Shown here piece by piece: positions 60,686-63,950 of a stretch of 64,000 nucleotides of DNA (its first letter is position 1; every line of letters begins with the position of its first letter). The notes beneath the pieces were generated by a model, which saw nothing but the letters and a program-made list of their open reading frames with translations, was not told where the DNA came from and did not search any database. This DNA is from a phage, in the NCBI GenBank assembly GCA_014687725.1, contig GCA_014687725.1_4094.1. One strand, 5' to 3'. Made by a program: the position numbers and the translations under genes.

Positions 60686-60744
60686 TTGCAAAGTATTGGG
60701 AAAGGTGTAGAATGTTTTACATCGAGACGGGGGATACGCTCCCG
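60686..60744 (+). promoter_or_regulatory. early-type promoter TTGCAA-N16-TAGAAT plus leader stem-loop (PeSL-like module)
   Basis: TTGCAA 60686-60691, TAGAAT 60708-60713, hairpin CGGGGG-ATACG-CTCCCG 60728-60744. Confidence 0.6.
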
Positions 60745-60770
60745 ACTCACTTTTAAAAGAGATTAAAACG

Positions 60771-61133
60771 ATGGCGACTCAAATCAATACTATCATGCTT
60801 AACCTGGTTTCTTTCCGTGAAGAGATGAAAGATCTTCCCGCTGAGACTGTACGGATTCACATTGCAGCTTATCGGGAATTGATTGCAATGCTGCCGCTTA
60901 AGCGTGAACAGTACGCCGCTACTGCAATGCTGGACGCAATGATACATAAGATGATCCAGACTGATTTAACGATGGCTTATCAGTACATGGGCGAAATGTT
61001 TGCAGTGTATAGCAAGCCAGTACCAGGAATGGAAAGTACAGAAGTATTACACGGCTTAAACTTAAAACAAGATGCATGGGATAATATGCCTCGTTTCCTG
61101 GTATGGGCTGATAGTGGAAAGATTTACGAATAA
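60771..61133 (+). CDS. hypothetical early protein (120 aa)
   Basis: ORF downstream of promoter module. Confidence 0.6.
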   Translation: MATQINTIMLNLVSFREEMKDLPAETVRIHIAAYRELIAMLPLKREQYAATAMLDAMIHKMIQTDLTMAYQYMGEMFAVYSKPVPGMESTEVLHGLNLKQDAWDNMPRFLVWADSGKIYE

Positions 61134-61147
61134 GTTTTTAAAAGTAC

Positions 61148-61206
61148 TTGCAAAGTAAGTTTAAAGGCGTATAATACTTTACATCAGGTGGGGAATAGTT
61201 CCCCAC
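61148..61206 (+). promoter_or_regulatory. PeSL-like module: TTGCAA-N16-TATAAT plus palindromic hairpin GTGGGGAA-TAG-TTCCCCAC
   Basis: TTGCAA 61148-61153, TATAAT 61170-61175, hairpin 61188-61206. Confidence 0.65.
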
Positions 61207-61226
61207 TATATAAGAGGATTAAAAAA

Positions 61227-61466
61227 ATGGCTAAATCAAAAATGTTCTTAGGTCACAAAAACAAAACTCAATGGAATGTAAGCCTTTGGATTAATAACGA
61301 CGAATCATTATACCGGTTGGCCCAGGACTTTATTGCCGCTAACACTAATCGTAATGATGCGGCCCGTCATATGATGCTATTTTTAGAACAGACTGGACAA
61401 GATAAAACACCGGACGGCTTTAAGTATAGCACTACTGCGATCCGTGCGGCGATGGTTGGAATGTAA
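61227..61466 (+). CDS. hypothetical early protein (79 aa)
   Basis: AGAGGA RBS before ATG 61227; track ORF starts at GTG inside hairpin. Confidence 0.55.
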   Translation: MAKSKMFLGHKNKTQWNVSLWINNDESLYRLAQDFIAANTNRNDAARHMMLFLEQTGQDKTPDGFKYSTTAIRAAMVGM

Positions 61467-61548
61467 GAGAATAGATTAAAAGTACTATTGCACGGTGATA
61501 GTACTTTATAATAGATTTCTTTTATACAACAACGATAGGGGTAACAGC

Positions 61549-61815
61549 ATGAATATTATATACTTTGCAACGCGTGAACTTGCTCGGATTGCCGCACGCC
61601 AGGACGGGGCGACGTTTAAAGATATGGGCGTACAATCTGAACGTGGTAAACGTTGGGCCGTAGTAAAGCAAAGTACAGCCCGTTCAATTCAGTACTGGCT
61701 ATCTGCTTTAAAGCGTCCTGATAGTGTATCGCGTCGCGTGGTAGAAATAAAGCACGACCGCAAGGGCAACCGCGTTACTGTGTACAGTACTAAAAAGATT
61801 GCAGTACTTGAATAA
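61549..61815 (+). CDS. hypothetical early protein (88 aa)
   Basis: TAGGGG RBS-like before ATG 61549. Confidence 0.5.
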   Translation: MNIIYFATRELARIAARQDGATFKDMGVQSERGKRWAVVKQSTARSIQYWLSALKRPDSVSRRVVEIKHDRKGNRVTVYSTKKIAVLE

Positions 61816-61822
61816 AAAGTAC

Positions 61823-61881
61823 TTGCAAACTATGTTTAAGGGCGTATAATGTTTTACATCGAGAGCGGGAATAGTTCCCGC
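61823..61881 (+). promoter_or_regulatory. PeSL-like module: TTGCAA-N16-TATAAT plus hairpin GCGGGA-ATAGT-TCCCGC
   Basis: TTGCAA 61823-61828, TATAAT 61845-61850, hairpin 61865-61881. Confidence 0.65.
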
Positions 61882-61901
61882 CTATAACCAGGAGTAATAA
61901 A

Positions 61902-62132
61902 ATGACCAATATGTATATGACTGAAGTTAAAACCGTAAAAGATACTACCACTAATAAAACTACTTACTTACAGCGGATCTGCGGTGTATGGCAACGTATC
62001 AGCAAATCAAAGTACTTTAAATTAACATCATATGCCAATCGTTCGGATTCATTCAGTACTGAAATAAAAGGTAATAAAGTACACCAATACGGCACTTATT
62101 ATTATTATAGCCTGGAGGCGATTGCAGTATAA
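61902..62132 (+). CDS. hypothetical early protein (76 aa)
   Basis: CAGGAG RBS. Confidence 0.55.
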   Translation: MTNMYMTEVKTVKDTTTNKTTYLQRICGVWQRISKSKYFKLTSYANRSDSFSTEIKGNKVHQYGTYYYYSLEAIAV

Positions 62133-62381
62133 GTAGTTTACAAATCTTTACAATTGCCAGTATTGACTTATTTTGTCAGTACTGGCATAATGTATTCATT
62201 GGCAGATAAGCCGTAGCCCATAGGGTGCGGGAGTGTATCTATAGAAAAATTAGTTTAGTATAGTTACAATTGTGCACCCGGTGGGTTAGCTGTTGTCATG
62301 GGGTATATTATGCCAGTACTTGATAATGCTGTCAATACTTTTTTTTAATATTCAGTACTGAAAACTATTTTTAAAAAGTAC

Positions 62382-62440
62382 TTGCAAACTATGTTTAAAG
62401 GCGTATAATGTTTTACATCAGGACGGGGGACGAAATAAGT
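62382..62440 (+). promoter_or_regulatory. orphan PeSL-like module (promoter plus stem-loop with no gene immediately downstream)
   Basis: TTGCAA 62382-62387, TATAAT 62404-62409, imperfect hairpin ACGGGGGA...TTCCCGT; AGGAG follows but no ATG. Confidence 0.5.
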
Positions 62441-62499
62441 AACTTCCCGTTAAGTAGCCCAGGAGTAAGGCACACGAAAAACTCCCCTGATAAAATAGT

Positions 62500-62527
62500 T
62501 TGACAATTGTTTTTAAAAGCGTATAAT
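62500..62527 (+). promoter_or_regulatory. sigma70-type promoter TTGACA-N16-TATAAT
   Basis: TTGACA 62500-62505, TATAAT 62522-62527; GAGGG RBS before ATG 62560. Confidence 0.6.
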
Positions 62528-62559
62528 ACTTACATCAACTACTGAATGAGGGTTACAAA

Positions 62560-63171
62560 ATGAAAACTATCACTACTACTACTTTCGTTATGGATTTTTC
62601 TGAATTGAACGCAGAACAACAAACGTCAGCTATCGAACTGGTTCGGGAACGTGAAAAAAACTCAAACGACAATTATTTTTCTGAAAGTGAAATTGAATAC
62701 TATAAAGAAACAGTACTACCGGAATATGGCATTAATGACGCTGAAATACAATTCAGTGGTTTTTGGTCCCAGGGTGACGGTGCATCAATCAGTACTGACC
62801 ACGTTGACGCAGTGAAGTTTTTACGCAAGGTAAGAGCATTAACTAAGTATCGCTCAATCCGTCACCTGCTGAATGAAGATGATTTGGCGATGAGTGTAAA
62901 GCGTTCTCACTCCCACTACTCGCATGAGAATACTGTAAGCGGGTACATTGAATCGGCTTACACTGATTTAACCGCAAAACAAGAAACGTTAGTTAATGAG
63001 CTTGAGGAACTACTCACTGAAACTATTCGTGAATTGTCCCGCAAGTTGTACCGTGATTTAGAGAATGCATATGAGGATCAATTCACTACTGAAAACATTA
63101 CGGCACTGATTGAGGGTAACGAATATCAATTCAATGTTATTGATGGCGTAGTAGAATCAATCGAATATTAA
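62560..63171 (+). CDS. hypothetical early protein (203 aa)
   Basis: ORF downstream of promoter. Confidence 0.6.
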   Translation: MKTITTTTFVMDFSELNAEQQTSAIELVREREKNSNDNYFSESEIEYYKETVLPEYGINDAEIQFSGFWSQGDGASISTDHVDAVKFLRKVRALTKYRSIRHLLNEDDLAMSVKRSHSHYSHENTVSGYIESAYTDLTAKQETLVNELEELLTETIRELSRKLYRDLENAYEDQFTTENITALIEGNEYQFNVIDGVVESIEY

Positions 63172-63183
63172 TTCAAAAAGTAC

Positions 63184-63243
63184 TTGCAAACTAAGTTTAA
63201 AAGCGTATAATACTTTATATCGAGGCGGGGAATGGTTCCCCGC
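63184..63243 (+). promoter_or_regulatory. PeSL-like module: TTGCAA-N16-TATAAT plus hairpin GCGGGGAA-TGG-TTCCCCGC
   Basis: TTGCAA 63184-63189, TATAAT 63206-63211, hairpin 63225-63243. Confidence 0.65.
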
Positions 63244-63264
63244 TCACACTAAAAGGGCAACAAA

Positions 63265-63537
63265 ATGAAAACTTTAAATATCACAACTGCACATCAATTG
63301 GTTCGGGATGCAATGGATCATGTGCAAGATTTCTTCCCTGATGTAAGTGTCGTAACTTATGAAAAAGGTACTTGGACTTATTCAACAATTAATGGTTATG
63401 AGCCTGATTTCGATGATCTGGAAGAAATGGAATTTAATTTTGATCTGCTGAATGATGCCGCCCGTGAAGTTGAAAACGATGTTCAATACATTGATGGTTC
63501 TGTCGCACCTGATGCAGTAAAAGAATTAAAAAACTAA
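63265..63537 (+). CDS. hypothetical early protein (90 aa)
   Basis: AAGGG RBS. Confidence 0.55.
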   Translation: MKTLNITTAHQLVRDAMDHVQDFFPDVSVVTYEKGTWTYSTINGYEPDFDDLEEMEFNFDLLNDAAREVENDVQYIDGSVAPDAVKELKN

Positions 63538-63544
63538 AAAGTAC

Positions 63545-63604
63545 TTGCATTGTAGTTAGATTAACGTATAATACTTTATATCGAGGCGGGGAATGGTTCC
63601 CGCC
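63545..63604 (+). promoter_or_regulatory. PeSL-like module: TTGCAT-N16-TATAAT plus hairpin GGCGGG-GAATGGTT-CCCGCC
   Basis: TTGCAT 63545-63550, TATAAT 63567-63572, hairpin 63585-63604. Confidence 0.6.
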
Positions 63605-63622
63605 TTTACTGAGGGTTATCTA

Positions 63623-63883
63623 ATGAGCAAAGTAATTAACTATACAGTGTTAAGCAAGTCATTGTCTATTAGCCAATGTACTGATGGTTATTGGCTTTAT
63701 GATGAAACGCGTGGCATGAATTTAGCTATGCAGGAGAAAACTACTGATGCGGCATATCTTAAAGCACTGGAATACTACCAGAAGCGTTTAAAGGAAGTAG
63801 AAAACGATTATAATAACCTGAAAGCGAAAGTAGATAATTTCGTTGGTCAATTCATCGAGGAAGACGACGACATACAATATTGA
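63623..63883 (+). CDS. hypothetical early protein (86 aa)
   Basis: GAGGG RBS before ATG 63623; track ORF starts at ATG inside hairpin. Confidence 0.55.
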   Translation: MSKVINYTVLSKSLSISQCTDGYWLYDETRGMNLAMQEKTTDAAYLKALEYYQKRLKEVENDYNNLKAKVDNFVGQFIEEDDDIQY

Positions 63884-63891
63884 AAAAGTAC

Positions 63892-63950
63892 TTGCAATTA
63901 GTTTTTAGTACTGTATAATGGTTTACATAGAGGGGGAAATGGTTCTCCCT
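63892..63950 (+). promoter_or_regulatory. PeSL-like module: TTGCAA-N16-TATAAT (AGTACTG in spacer) plus hairpin
   Basis: TTGCAA 63892-63897, TATAAT 63914-63919, hairpin AGGGGGAA-ATGG-TTCTCCCT 63931-63950. Confidence 0.6.

What the first reader, a model, noticed from the sequence alone, without database searches (positions are those of the whole stretch)
60686..63950. Repeated early-promoter plus leader stem-loop modules, including an orphan copy
At least seven units of AAAAGTACTTGCAA-N16-TATAAT are followed within about 10 nt by a GC-rich near-palindromic hairpin (consensus GCGGGGAA-TNG-TTCCCCGC), each preceding a small gene. One copy (62382-62440) has no gene. This matches my recollection of the promoter-early stem-loop (PeSL) cassettes reported in T4-type phages. 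Because the hairpin is a DNA palindrome straddling the transcription start, it could equally be an operator for a dimeric repressor.
Basis: partly seen in the sequence, partly recalled or inferred. Interest (0 to 1): 0.55.

Follow-up and report, generated by a model that had tools for sequence, protein, structure and literature searches.

The report
Early promoter–leader hairpin gene cassettes
The left end of a jumbo coliphage's terminal repeat holds an array of host-type early promoters, each followed by a short hairpin at the start of its RNA and a small gene; this resembles cassettes known from T4-like phages, but the one "gene-less" copy drives a conserved, undescribed structured RNA.

Summary
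Seven AAAAGTACTTGCAA-N16-TATAAT units lie at 60678-63919, all on the + strand (0.02 expected by chance), and six are followed by a G-rich/C-rich hairpin, an SD and a small gene.

The window is a 121Q-like Asteriusvirus, not a T4-type phage. Window 59043 matches position 1 of two end-determined genomes, so the array opens the ~21 kb direct terminal repeat. In relatives, about 20-25 such modules fill that repeat and stop at its end.

The hairpin starts 10-15 nt after the -10 box, so it lies inside the predicted transcript and does not straddle the start. It behaves as sense-strand RNA: 12 G·U against 0 A·C mismatches, and stems and loops that vary. None of 59 hairpins has a U-tract. I read it as a 5'-leader or intercistronic RNA hairpin acting on mRNA stability or translation. 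That function is inferred, not shown.

The modules also mark cassette-shuffling junctions, and whole cassettes recur in rV5-like and phi92-like phages. This works like PeSLs but fails PeSL membership.

The "orphan" copy drives a ~75-nt structured RNA conserved in five lineages, with no Rfam match.

The parts
59043..60677 (+). Left physical end of the direct terminal repeat (DTR), followed by a 1.6-kb gene-free, repeat-rich terminal stretch that precedes the array
   Evidence: Window 59043 aligns to position 1 of fEgEco12 and of vB_Ec-M-J. Both records start AGTAGGCAGAGG.... [quoted passage not shown] Repeats are listed.
60678..60713 (+). Module 1 promoter (UP-like GAAAGTAC, -35 TTGCAA 60686-60691, -10 TAGAAT 60708-60713); predicted start 60721
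60724..60748 (+). Module 1 leader hairpin (contains one G·U pair); followed by the gene 60771-61133 (120 aa, phrog_7352)
   Evidence: -13.4 kcal/mol, z -2.8
61140..61175 (+). Module 2 promoter; predicted start 61183
61187..61207 (+). Module 2 leader hairpin GGTGGGGAA-UAG-UUCCCCACU; followed by the gene 61227-61466 (79 aa, DUF7249)
   Evidence: -14.2 kcal/mol
61478..61512 (+). Degenerate, hairpin-less promoter-like variant (AAAAGTACTATTGCAC..AGTACTTTATAAT; the spacer is only about 13 nt, so function is doubtful) in front of the gene 61549-61815 (88 aa)
   Evidence: read directly from the sequence; phrog_8127
61815..61850 (+). Module 3 promoter; predicted start 61858
61862..61883 (+). Module 3 leader hairpin GCGGGAA-UAG-UUCCCGC; followed by the gene 61902-62132 (76 aa)
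   Evidence: -12.0 kcal/mol
62374..62409 (+). Promoter of the 'orphan' copy (nearly identical to the module 3 promoter); predicted start 62417
62417..62491 (+). Conserved structured RNA element: outer helix AUCAGG/CCUGAU, P1 ACGGGGGA/UUCCCGU, junction UAAGUAGCC, P2 GGAG/CUCC with the conserved loop UAAGGCACACGAAAAA, then an A-rich tail and no terminator
   Evidence: no Rfam match
62500..62527 (+). Second, hairpin-less consensus promoter TTGACA-N16-TATAAT immediately after the RNA element; serves the gene 62560-63171 (203 aa, phrog_5162)
63176..63211 (+). Module promoter; predicted start 63219
63224..63244 (+). Leader hairpin GCGGGGAA-UGG-UUCCCCGC; followed by the gene 63265-63537 (90 aa). In about 10 relatives homology stops at 63244-63246, exactly at the 3' end of this hairpin
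63537..63572 (+). Module promoter (-35 TTGCAT); predicted start 63580
63583..63606 (+). Leader hairpin (-16.7 kcal/mol in the sense strand, -14.0 in the antisense); followed by the gene 63623-63883 (86 aa, phrog_19040)
63884..63919 (+). Module promoter; predicted start 63927
63931..63950 (+). Leader hairpin AGGGGGAA-AUGG-UUCUCCCU with a G·U pair (-11.0 kcal/mol sense, -6.6 antisense); the gene starts at 63970 and runs off the window

Best explanation
This is the first 5 kb of the early ('host-takeover') gene array that fills the direct terminal repeat of an Asteriusvirus jumbo phage.

Each unit has four parts: a strong host sigma70 promoter (A-rich UP-like element, TTGCAA, 16 nt, TATAAT); a conserved initial transcribed CAT(C/A)RRG; a 7-9 bp G-rich/C-rich hairpin that forms in the RNA 3-5 nt from its predicted 5' end; and, about 20 nt further on, the SD and start codon of a small gene of unknown function.

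The hairpin most likely acts after transcription. On a unit's own transcript it is a 5'-terminal stem-loop that limits 5'-end-dependent decay (RppH/RNase E), as in ompA and T4 gene 32. It would also keep the ribosome-binding site insulated from upstream sequence. On read-through transcripts from upstream units it sits between cistrons, where it can block 3' exonucleases.

Because the ~80-nt module is repeated between nearly all genes, it also serves as the homology at which gene cassettes are swapped, lost and gained within and between phage families.

Shown: the anatomy, the location in the terminal repeat, the conservation, the RNA-type pairing signature, the lack of terminator features, and breakpoints at modules.
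Inferred: sigma70 use and early timing, the exact start site, and the stabilising or insulating function.
For: Repetition and promoter quality.

Position in the genome: window 59043 is position 1 of two end-determined genomes (PMC13070987). In fEgEco12, 24 modules lie at 1656-20073 inside the 20,993-bp DTR and none in the next 3 kb, where gene spacing collapses. 121Q shows the same pattern.

Early expression by analogy: in the related phage PA5oct the DTR genes are the highly transcribed early genes, and infection depends on host RNAP (PMC7318152).

RNA-level signature over 63 unique hairpins: 12 G·T, 0 A·C and 4 transversion mismatches; a 5' arm that is 94% purine, as expected for GC<->AU exchange through G·U intermediates; stem start 10-15 nt after the -10; loops of 3-5 nt. 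Sense folds are more stable than antisense folds (Wilcoxon p = 0.0017; 4 of 6 window copies).

Geometry: only 3-5 unpaired nt at the predicted 5' end, and a median of 20 nt from hairpin to ATG.

Not terminators: 0 of 59 have a U-tract.

Shuffling: 26 of 70 homology breakpoints fall inside modules against 6.5 expected. Ten relatives lose homology at 63244-63246, the end of a hairpin. Whole cassettes are shared with A73 (Vequintavirinae) and JLBYU50 (Justusliebigvirus) at 74-90% identity, in a different order.

Precedents: a 5' leader hairpin stabilises T4 gene 32 mRNA (cited in PMC8948821). The rule that a 5'-terminal stem-loop stabilises E. coli mRNA (ompA) is established knowledge, recalled rather than retrieved here.
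Against: No transcription start, half-life or translation measurement exists for this phage group, so the start site and the stabilising function are inferred.

The G·U against A·C count rests on at least 4 independent events, not 12, because many copies are related.

Some copies would leave 5-7 unpaired nt at the 5' end if the outer weak pairs do not form. That is more than the 2-4 nt reported to be optimal for protection.

Many promoters of the same family in CBB, GAP32 and other relatives lack any hairpin, so it is not needed for expression.

Breakpoint enrichment at modules is partly expected anyway: modules occupy the intergenic spacers, and only recombinants with intact genes survive.

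RNAalifold on a MAFFT alignment gave only a weak consensus because of register problems.
Confidence: 0.55

Rival explanations
1. PeSL-type attenuator. The stem-loop terminates or attenuates transcription arriving from upstream units, so that each gene is expressed mainly from its own promoter and early transcription does not spill downstream.
For: This is the function proposed for PeSL stem-loops, and one of them was shown to act as a terminator in a lacZ reporter (PMC2839356). The stems here are likewise polyG followed by polyC and lie between co-oriented genes with no other terminators.
Against: None of 59 hairpins is followed by 5 or more T in 8 nt, and the T content there equals the background. 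The terminator scan flags only one of the seven window copies. The hairpin lies inside the unit's own transcript, so an efficient terminator would abort the unit's own gene. True terminators in the same window have long T-runs (GCCAGTACTTGATACTGGCTTTTCTTTTTT).
Confidence: 0.12
2. DNA operator. The palindrome at about +4 to +30 is bound by a dimeric phage or host repressor that blocks promoter clearance and shuts off all early units together.
For: The GGGGAA..TTCCCC half-sites are fairly similar in many copies, and a site just downstream of the start is a classical operator position.
Against: The spacing between half-sites varies (loops of 3, 4 and 5 nt in 20, 19 and 19 copies), and stem length ranges from 5 to 10 bp. 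Half-site sequences differ between copies while pairing is kept. Departures from symmetry are all G·T and never A·C (12 against 0), which matters for RNA but not for duplex DNA. Hairpin-less promoters of the same family coexist in relatives.
Confidence: 0.06
3. RNA tag. The hairpin is the recognition element for a phage-encoded RNA-binding protein or endoribonuclease that co-ordinately represses or destroys early mRNAs at the early-to-middle switch, in the manner of T4 RegB or RegA.
For: The hairpin is at the RNA level, sits next to the RBS, and is restricted to the early array. The persistent G-rich 5' arm and C-rich 3' arm go beyond what stability alone requires.
Against: Loop sequences are not conserved (UAG, UGG, AUGG, CAC, ACAUC, AUAUC). 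The purine polarity is explained by descent through G·U intermediates. No candidate protein was identified.
Confidence: 0.15
4. No function of its own. The hairpin is carried along because whole modules are copied by recombination and gene conversion.
For: The modules are clearly paralogous and exchange between sites. Relatives manage with hairpin-less promoters.
Against: Pairing is maintained across divergent stems in several phage families, with G·U but no A·C mismatches. The position relative to the -10 and the ATG is tightly kept.
Confidence: 0.07

Closest known systems
PeSL (promoter-early stem-loop) cassettes of T4-like phages RB49, phi1, PST and nt-1 (Arbiol et al. 2010, PMC2839356; Comeau et al. 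2014, PMC4122927)
   Same: A sigma70-consensus early promoter with an AT-rich upstream region. A polyG/polyC stem-loop. An SD and ATG at the 3' end. Dense repetition between small ORFan genes. Indels and replacements whose junctions lie in the modules.
   Different: A different phage lineage (Asteriusvirus). The array is confined to the direct terminal repeat rather than to internal hyperplastic regions. The stem-loop has one fixed position after the predicted start, instead of five positions at or before it. There is no terminator signature. Mini-circles were not tested.
Host-takeover module in the terminal redundancy of Bacillus phage SPO1, and the pre-early genes in the T5 terminal repeat (recalled from established literature, not retrieved here); DTR early genes of PA5oct (PMC7318152)
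   Same: A long terminal repeat packed with small genes of unknown function. Each gene, or nearly each, has its own strong host-sigma promoter, and they are expressed first.
   Different: A leader hairpin attached to each promoter is not a described feature of those modules.
5'-terminal stabilising stem-loops (E. coli ompA 5' UTR; T4 gene 32 leader, cited in PMC8948821)
   Same: A stable hairpin a few nucleotides from the 5' end of an mRNA, upstream of the RBS.
   Different: Those are single, gene-specific leaders. Here one hairpin type is serialised over about 20 genes and is part of a recombining module. Its function is untested.
RpoD-like promoters with an UP-like element reported in Rak2-like phages CBB and GAP32 (PMC5259590)
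   Same: The same promoter family: AAAGTACTTGCA...TATAAT is found in the CBB and GAP32 loci, concentrated in the early region and the terminal repeat.
   Different: That paper does not mention a stem-loop, and most CBB and GAP32 copies indeed lack one.
HK022 putL/putR RNAs (PMC9378689), compared with the 'orphan' element only
   Same: A ~70-nt multi-helix RNA encoded immediately downstream of an early promoter, in two copies per genome, at the head of long transcription units.
   Different: No sequence or model similarity was established. The architecture differs (three-way junction against two stem-loops). No functional data exist.

Membership tests
PeSL | [quoted passage not shown] | tested here: met
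   AAAAGTAC-TTGCAA-N16-TATAAT in 7 copies, scoring 9-10 of 12 against the consensus
PeSL | Adjacent stable stem-loop, often polyG followed by polyC | tested here: met
   Hairpins of -11 to -16.7 kcal/mol; 5' arm 94% purine, mostly G
PeSL | [quoted passage not shown] | tested here: not met
   The stem starts 10-15 nt after the -10, which is after the predicted start. Caveat: the start site is predicted, not mapped.
PeSL | The stem-loop acts as a transcription terminator or attenuator | tested here: not met
   Sequence proxy only: 0 of 59 have a U-tract. A reporter assay was not possible.
PeSL | Flanks ORFan genes and mediates their insertion, deletion or replacement by recombination between modules | tested here: met
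   26 of 70 breakpoints fall in modules against 6.5 expected. Homology ends at 63244-63246 in about 10 relatives. Cassettes appear in a shuffled order in other phage families.
PeSL | Forms excised mini-circles; occurs in T4-type phage hyperplastic regions | not testable with these tools
   Mini-circles need inverse PCR. As to lineage, the phage is an Asteriusvirus, not T4-type.
Intrinsic (Rho-independent) terminator | GC-rich hairpin immediately followed by a U-tract | tested here: not met
   Mean of 2.4 T in the 8 nt after the stem, and none with 5 or more
Palindromic operator of a dimeric repressor | Conserved half-site sequence at a fixed spacing, with symmetry at the DNA level | tested here: not met
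   Variable loops and stems; 12 G·T against 0 A·C mismatches
5'-terminal stabilising stem-loop | Hairpin within a few (about 4 or fewer) unpaired nt of the mRNA 5' end | tested here: inconclusive
   3-5 unpaired nt if the start is the conserved A, 8 nt after the -10. The start is not mapped.
5'-terminal stabilising stem-loop | Lengthens mRNA half-life in an RNase E / RppH-dependent way | not testable with these tools
   Needs a rifampicin chase with stem and compensatory mutants
Terminal-repeat early (host-takeover) gene module | Lies within the direct terminal repeat and consists of many small genes with individual host-sigma promoters | tested here: met
   PMC13070987
Terminal-repeat early (host-takeover) gene module | Transcribed first, by host RNAP | not testable with these tools
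   Only by analogy with PA5oct (PMC7318152)
Any Rfam RNA family (for the orphan element and the hairpins) | Match to a curated covariance model | tested here: not met
   No match at the gathering threshold over the whole window, nor at E <= 1 on 59000-64000

The most novel reading that the evidence does not exclude
The 'orphan' unit (62417-62491) is a new class of promoter-proximal, cis-acting RNA shared by several families of large virulent coliphages. It would act like HK022 put: it folds as soon as it is transcribed, modifies the RNA polymerase that made it, and lets that polymerase read through the array of downstream leader hairpins and out of the terminal repeat. The ordinary hairpins would then also act as pause or attenuation points. 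Together these would give a two-tier early transcription programme with no protein factor.
Probability: 0.1. Interest if true: 0.75.

Novelty: new variant of a known kind. Interest (0 to 1): 0.45.

Why it matters
Composite promoter + stem-loop cassettes would not be a peculiarity of T4-like phages. They would be a general building plan for the early, fast-evolving gene sets of large virulent coliphages: Rak2-like jumbo phages, rV5-like phages and phi92-like phages.

The finding also ties the array to the leading ~21 kb terminal repeat. It offers a ready-made set of about 20 natural promoter-leader parts per genome, with graded stems, for testing how 5' hairpins set mRNA life and translation during host takeover.

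The gene-less copy adds an undescribed structured RNA that is more conserved than the neighbouring genes. It is a concrete candidate for an early phage regulatory RNA.

Tried and rejected
- A loose 10-mer scan of the window was uninformative.
- MAFFT plus RNAalifold on 42 leaders gave a poor consensus, because hairpins of different length fall out of register. I replaced it with a loop-anchored, strand-symmetric stem finder.
- Counting G·U pairs from MFE folds alone is biased towards G·U. I replaced it with a scheme that penalises G·T and A·C equally.
- A viral-contig scan with a 14-base gapped pattern for the orphan motif returned about 120 mostly chance hits. I discarded these (L039-L156) and repeated the scan with a 19-base pattern. 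Of the three new loci, L165 is genuine and L166 and L167 look like chance matches.
- The single-sequence fold of the orphan element is not significant on its own (z = -0.98). Support comes from the comparison across lineages.
- A coding reading of the orphan was rejected. The only ORF (62408-62503) starts inside the -10 box, upstream of the predicted start, has no SD, and the variants differ by indels that are not multiples of three.
- N4-type DNA-hairpin promoters, RNase III sites (the stems are too short) and lambda boxB were considered and set aside.
- The rV5, CBB, Sharanji, fEgEco12 and PA5oct papers contain no description of the leader hairpin.

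
Full report
**1. Observation**

The pattern AAAAGTACTTGCAA-N16-TATAAT occurs seven times with at most 2 mismatches, at 60678, 61140, 61815, 62374, 63176, 63537 and 63884. All copies are on the + strand, none lies elsewhere in the 64 kb, and 0.02 are expected from shuffles.

Aligned on the -10 box, all copies share a conserved RYTTTAYAT(C/A)RRG after TATAAT. Six of them then have a G-rich/C-rich inverted repeat, an SD and a start codon. Folded as RNA from the predicted start, the six leaders form hairpins of -11.0 to -16.7 kcal/mol (z = -1.6 to -3.0), leaving 3-5 unpaired nucleotides at the 5' end.

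The ORFs behind them are real. Five of the six complete ORFs that follow a hairpin module, plus the 203-aa gene behind the second promoter, match PHROG families of unknown function, and one of the five is also DUF7249. The 90-aa ORF at 63265-63537 matches no family, and the gene at 63970 runs off the window and was not scanned.

- The stem starts 10-15 nt after the -10, not within about 10 nt.
- It lies after the predicted start, so it does not straddle it.
- The quoted consensus fits only one copy.

**2. What genome, and where in it**

The region is 87-94% identical to Asteriusvirus jumbo coliphages such as 121Q, PBECO4, G17, Sharanji and fEgEco12. It is not a T4-type phage.

Window 59043 aligns to nucleotide 1 of fEgEco12 and of vB_Ec-M-J. 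Both records begin AGTAGGCAGAGG.... The ends of fEgEco12, and its 20,993-bp direct terminal repeat (DTR), were established by PhageTerm and restriction digests (PMC13070987).

The window therefore crosses the left DTR boundary. It contains a 1.6-kb gene-free, repeat-rich terminal stretch (59043-60677) and then the first 3.3 kb of the array.

- In fEgEco12, 24 modules lie at 1656-20073, all reading inward. There are none in the 3 kb after the DTR, where genes become tightly packed without spacers.
- 121Q has about 21 modules over 137,070-154,718, with the same change in gene spacing.

The finding is thus the truncated start of an array of about 20 kb and about 55 genes that is coextensive with the DTR.

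In the related phage PA5oct, the DTR genes are the highly transcribed early genes, infection is rifampicin-sensitive, and two abundant ncRNAs map in the DTR (PMC7318152). This supports early, host-RNAP-driven expression, but only by analogy.

**3. Nature of the hairpin**

I collected 190 unique leaders behind promoters of this family from the window, 121Q, fEgEco12 and IMG/VR contigs. A stem finder that penalises G·T and A·C equally found 63 strong core stems:
- Stems are mostly 7-8 bp.
- Loops of 3, 4 and 5 nt occur in 20, 19 and 19 copies.
- The first paired base is 10-15 nt after the -10.
- The 5' arm is 94% purine.
- Internal mismatches are 12 G·T, 0 A·C and 4 transversions. The nominal binomial p is 5×10⁻⁴, but only about 4 or more events are independent.

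Sense folds are more stable than antisense folds (Wilcoxon p = 0.0017). In the window this holds in 4 of 6 copies, for example -11.0 against -6.6 kcal/mol.

Stem sequences differ with compensation: GGGGAA/TTCCCC, GGGAGAA/TTCTCCC, GCGGGAA/TTCCCGC, GGGGGAG/CTCCCCC and GGGGAAAC/GTTTCCCC. The retained purine polarity, together with G·U and no A·C, is what a stem evolving by GC<->AU exchange through G·U intermediates under sense-strand RNA pairing would show. This is an inference.

None of the 59 G-rich hairpins is followed by a U-tract, so they are not intrinsic terminators. The distance from hairpin end to ATG is tight, with a median of 20 nt and an interquartile range of 19-22.

The variable half-site spacing and the strand asymmetry argue against a DNA operator.

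The hairpin is optional in the wider family. CBB, GAP32 and others carry the same promoter with short hairpin-less leaders.

**4. Recombination**

I compared the DTRs of the window, 121Q, fEgEco12 and EC22.5-2. Of 70 homology breakpoints, 26 lie inside module spans, which make up about 9-10% of the sequence; 6.5 are expected. A further 11 lie within 30 nt of a module.

About ten relatives lose homology to the window at 63244-63246, the 3' end of the 63224-63244 hairpin. Relative to fEgEco12, two window genes replace a different one between that point and the next promoter.

The caveat is that modules occupy the spacers, where viable junctions are expected anyway.

Whole cassettes also recur in other phage groups. 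These include phage A73 (Vequintavirinae, rV5-like) and JLBYU50 (Justusliebigvirus, phi92-like). Both have arrays with the same promoter-CAT-hairpin-SD architecture, and they share individual cassettes with Asteriusvirus at 74-90% nucleotide identity in a different order.

**5. The 'orphan' copy**

The promoter at 62374 is followed by no ORF, but its leader is not a remnant.
- The 91 nt after the -10 are 98.9% identical in most Asteriusvirus genomes, while the surrounding region is 90-94% identical.
- The element occurs twice per DTR, plus a shorter variant.
- It is unannotated in most records.
- It is also present in Vequintavirinae (A73, W70, A7_1) and in Justusliebigvirus (muut, outra).

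Five sequence lineages share one architecture that starts at the predicted +1. They include a 43-kb contig of an unrelated phage. The parts are:
- an outer helix: AUCAGG/CCUGAU, GACG/CGUC, GAG·CGGC/GCUG·CUC, CGGGG/CCCCG or ACCGAA/UUCGGU;
- an optional P1 hairpin;
- an invariant junction UAAGUAGNC;
- a 4-5 bp P2 (GGAG/CUCC, CCAG/CUGG or GUCAG/CUGAC) closing a conserved 16-nt loop UAAGNCNNNYGAANAN;
- an A-rich tail without a terminator.

RNAalifold finds P2 with two compensatory pairs and no broken pair. The outer helix is more complementary than shuffled controls in every lineage (Fisher combined p = 1.5×10⁻⁵), and independent MFE folds give the same layout. Rfam has no match.

In most copies examined, a second sigma70 promoter follows within about 15 nt (62500-62527 in the window), and then a gene; the short variant has no evident second promoter before its gene.

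I conclude that this is a conserved, promoter-driven structured RNA of unknown function. It could be an early sRNA released by cleavage in the A-rich tail, a protein-binding leader, or a put-like cis-acting antiterminator. These remain hypotheses.

**6. Mechanism and comparison**

The best-supported reading is an array of sigma70 early promoters, each with an RNA hairpin near the 5' end of its transcript. The hairpin would act on mRNA stability or RBS insulation, and between cistrons on read-through transcripts. The repeated module would also serve as the recombination substrate for cassette shuffling.

It works like the PeSLs of T4-like phages (PMC2839356, PMC4122927), but it fails two PeSL features on the available evidence, namely stem-loop position relative to the start and terminator character, and it is in a different lineage. 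It is therefore a variant rather than a member.

Its position in the DTR resembles the terminal-repeat early modules of SPO1, T5 and PA5oct.

The promoter family itself was reported for CBB and GAP32 without any mention of the hairpin (PMC5259590). The Asteriusvirus and rV5 papers I read do not describe it.

**7. Verdict**

This is a real, conserved feature of an ordinary kind, an early regulatory cassette. It appears in a setting and with a geometry not previously described, and it comes with a structured RNA that is new to the databases searched. Overall interest is moderate.

Noticed in passing
window, whole 64 kb: The palindrome AGTACT occurs 217 times against 21.7 expected (Markov-1), and CAGTACTG 50 times against 0.9. 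It is spread evenly through coding and non-coding DNA and is denser in the DTR end (26-29 per 4 kb against about 11). It is also part of the promoter (AAAGTACTTGCA). The reason is unknown; it could be a binding, modification or packaging signal.
   Followed up: partly
window 62159-62339 (also 60072-60140 and 60288-60356): Two near-consensus promoters face each other: TTGACT-17-CATAAT at 62163-62191 on the + strand and TTGACA-17-CATAAT at 62335-62307 on the - strand, both with TG. They lie across a 109-nt gene-free element that carries GGGTGCGGGAGTGTATC...GCACCCGGTGGGTTAG. That element is repeated three times near the DTR end, and related leaders (CATTGGCAGATAAGCC..AGGGTGC) follow promoters in CBB and other Rak2-like contigs. 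It is possibly a sense/antisense RNA pair or a second ncRNA family.
   Followed up: partly
window 59043-60677: A 1.6-kb gene-free stretch lies at the physical left end of the genome. It begins with a small hairpin (GGCAGAGGAAGTCTGCC, 59047-59063) and is full of short direct and inverted repeats built around CAGTACTG and GATAGTTCCCCT. It may hold packaging or terminus signals.
   Followed up: partly
window 41400-53300, minus strand: At least seven tandem paralogous genes begin MLPFGRMVKYGN... and are annotated in 121Q as RCC1-like 'regulator of chromosome condensation'. Each is preceded by an identical unit of terminator hairpin (GCCAGTACTTGATACTGGC + T-run), promoter-like TATAGTATAAT and SD. 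This is a second, different repeated regulatory cassette in the same window.
   Followed up: no
window 56800-58800: There is a tandem array of small paralogous ORFs of about 60 aa (MNKEHKEFY...), back to back, just upstream of the DTR boundary.
   Followed up: no
L006, L009, L022 and L026 (Rak2-like contigs, including CBB and GAP32): Many promoters of the family are themselves palindromic (AAAGTACTTGC-N8-GCGAGTACTTTATAAT), so they also match on the opposite strand. These copies have hairpin-less leaders. [quoted passage not shown]
   Followed up: no
window 36-301 and 1811-1884: Four tRNA genes are present: Ser, Met, Asn and Thr.
   Followed up: no
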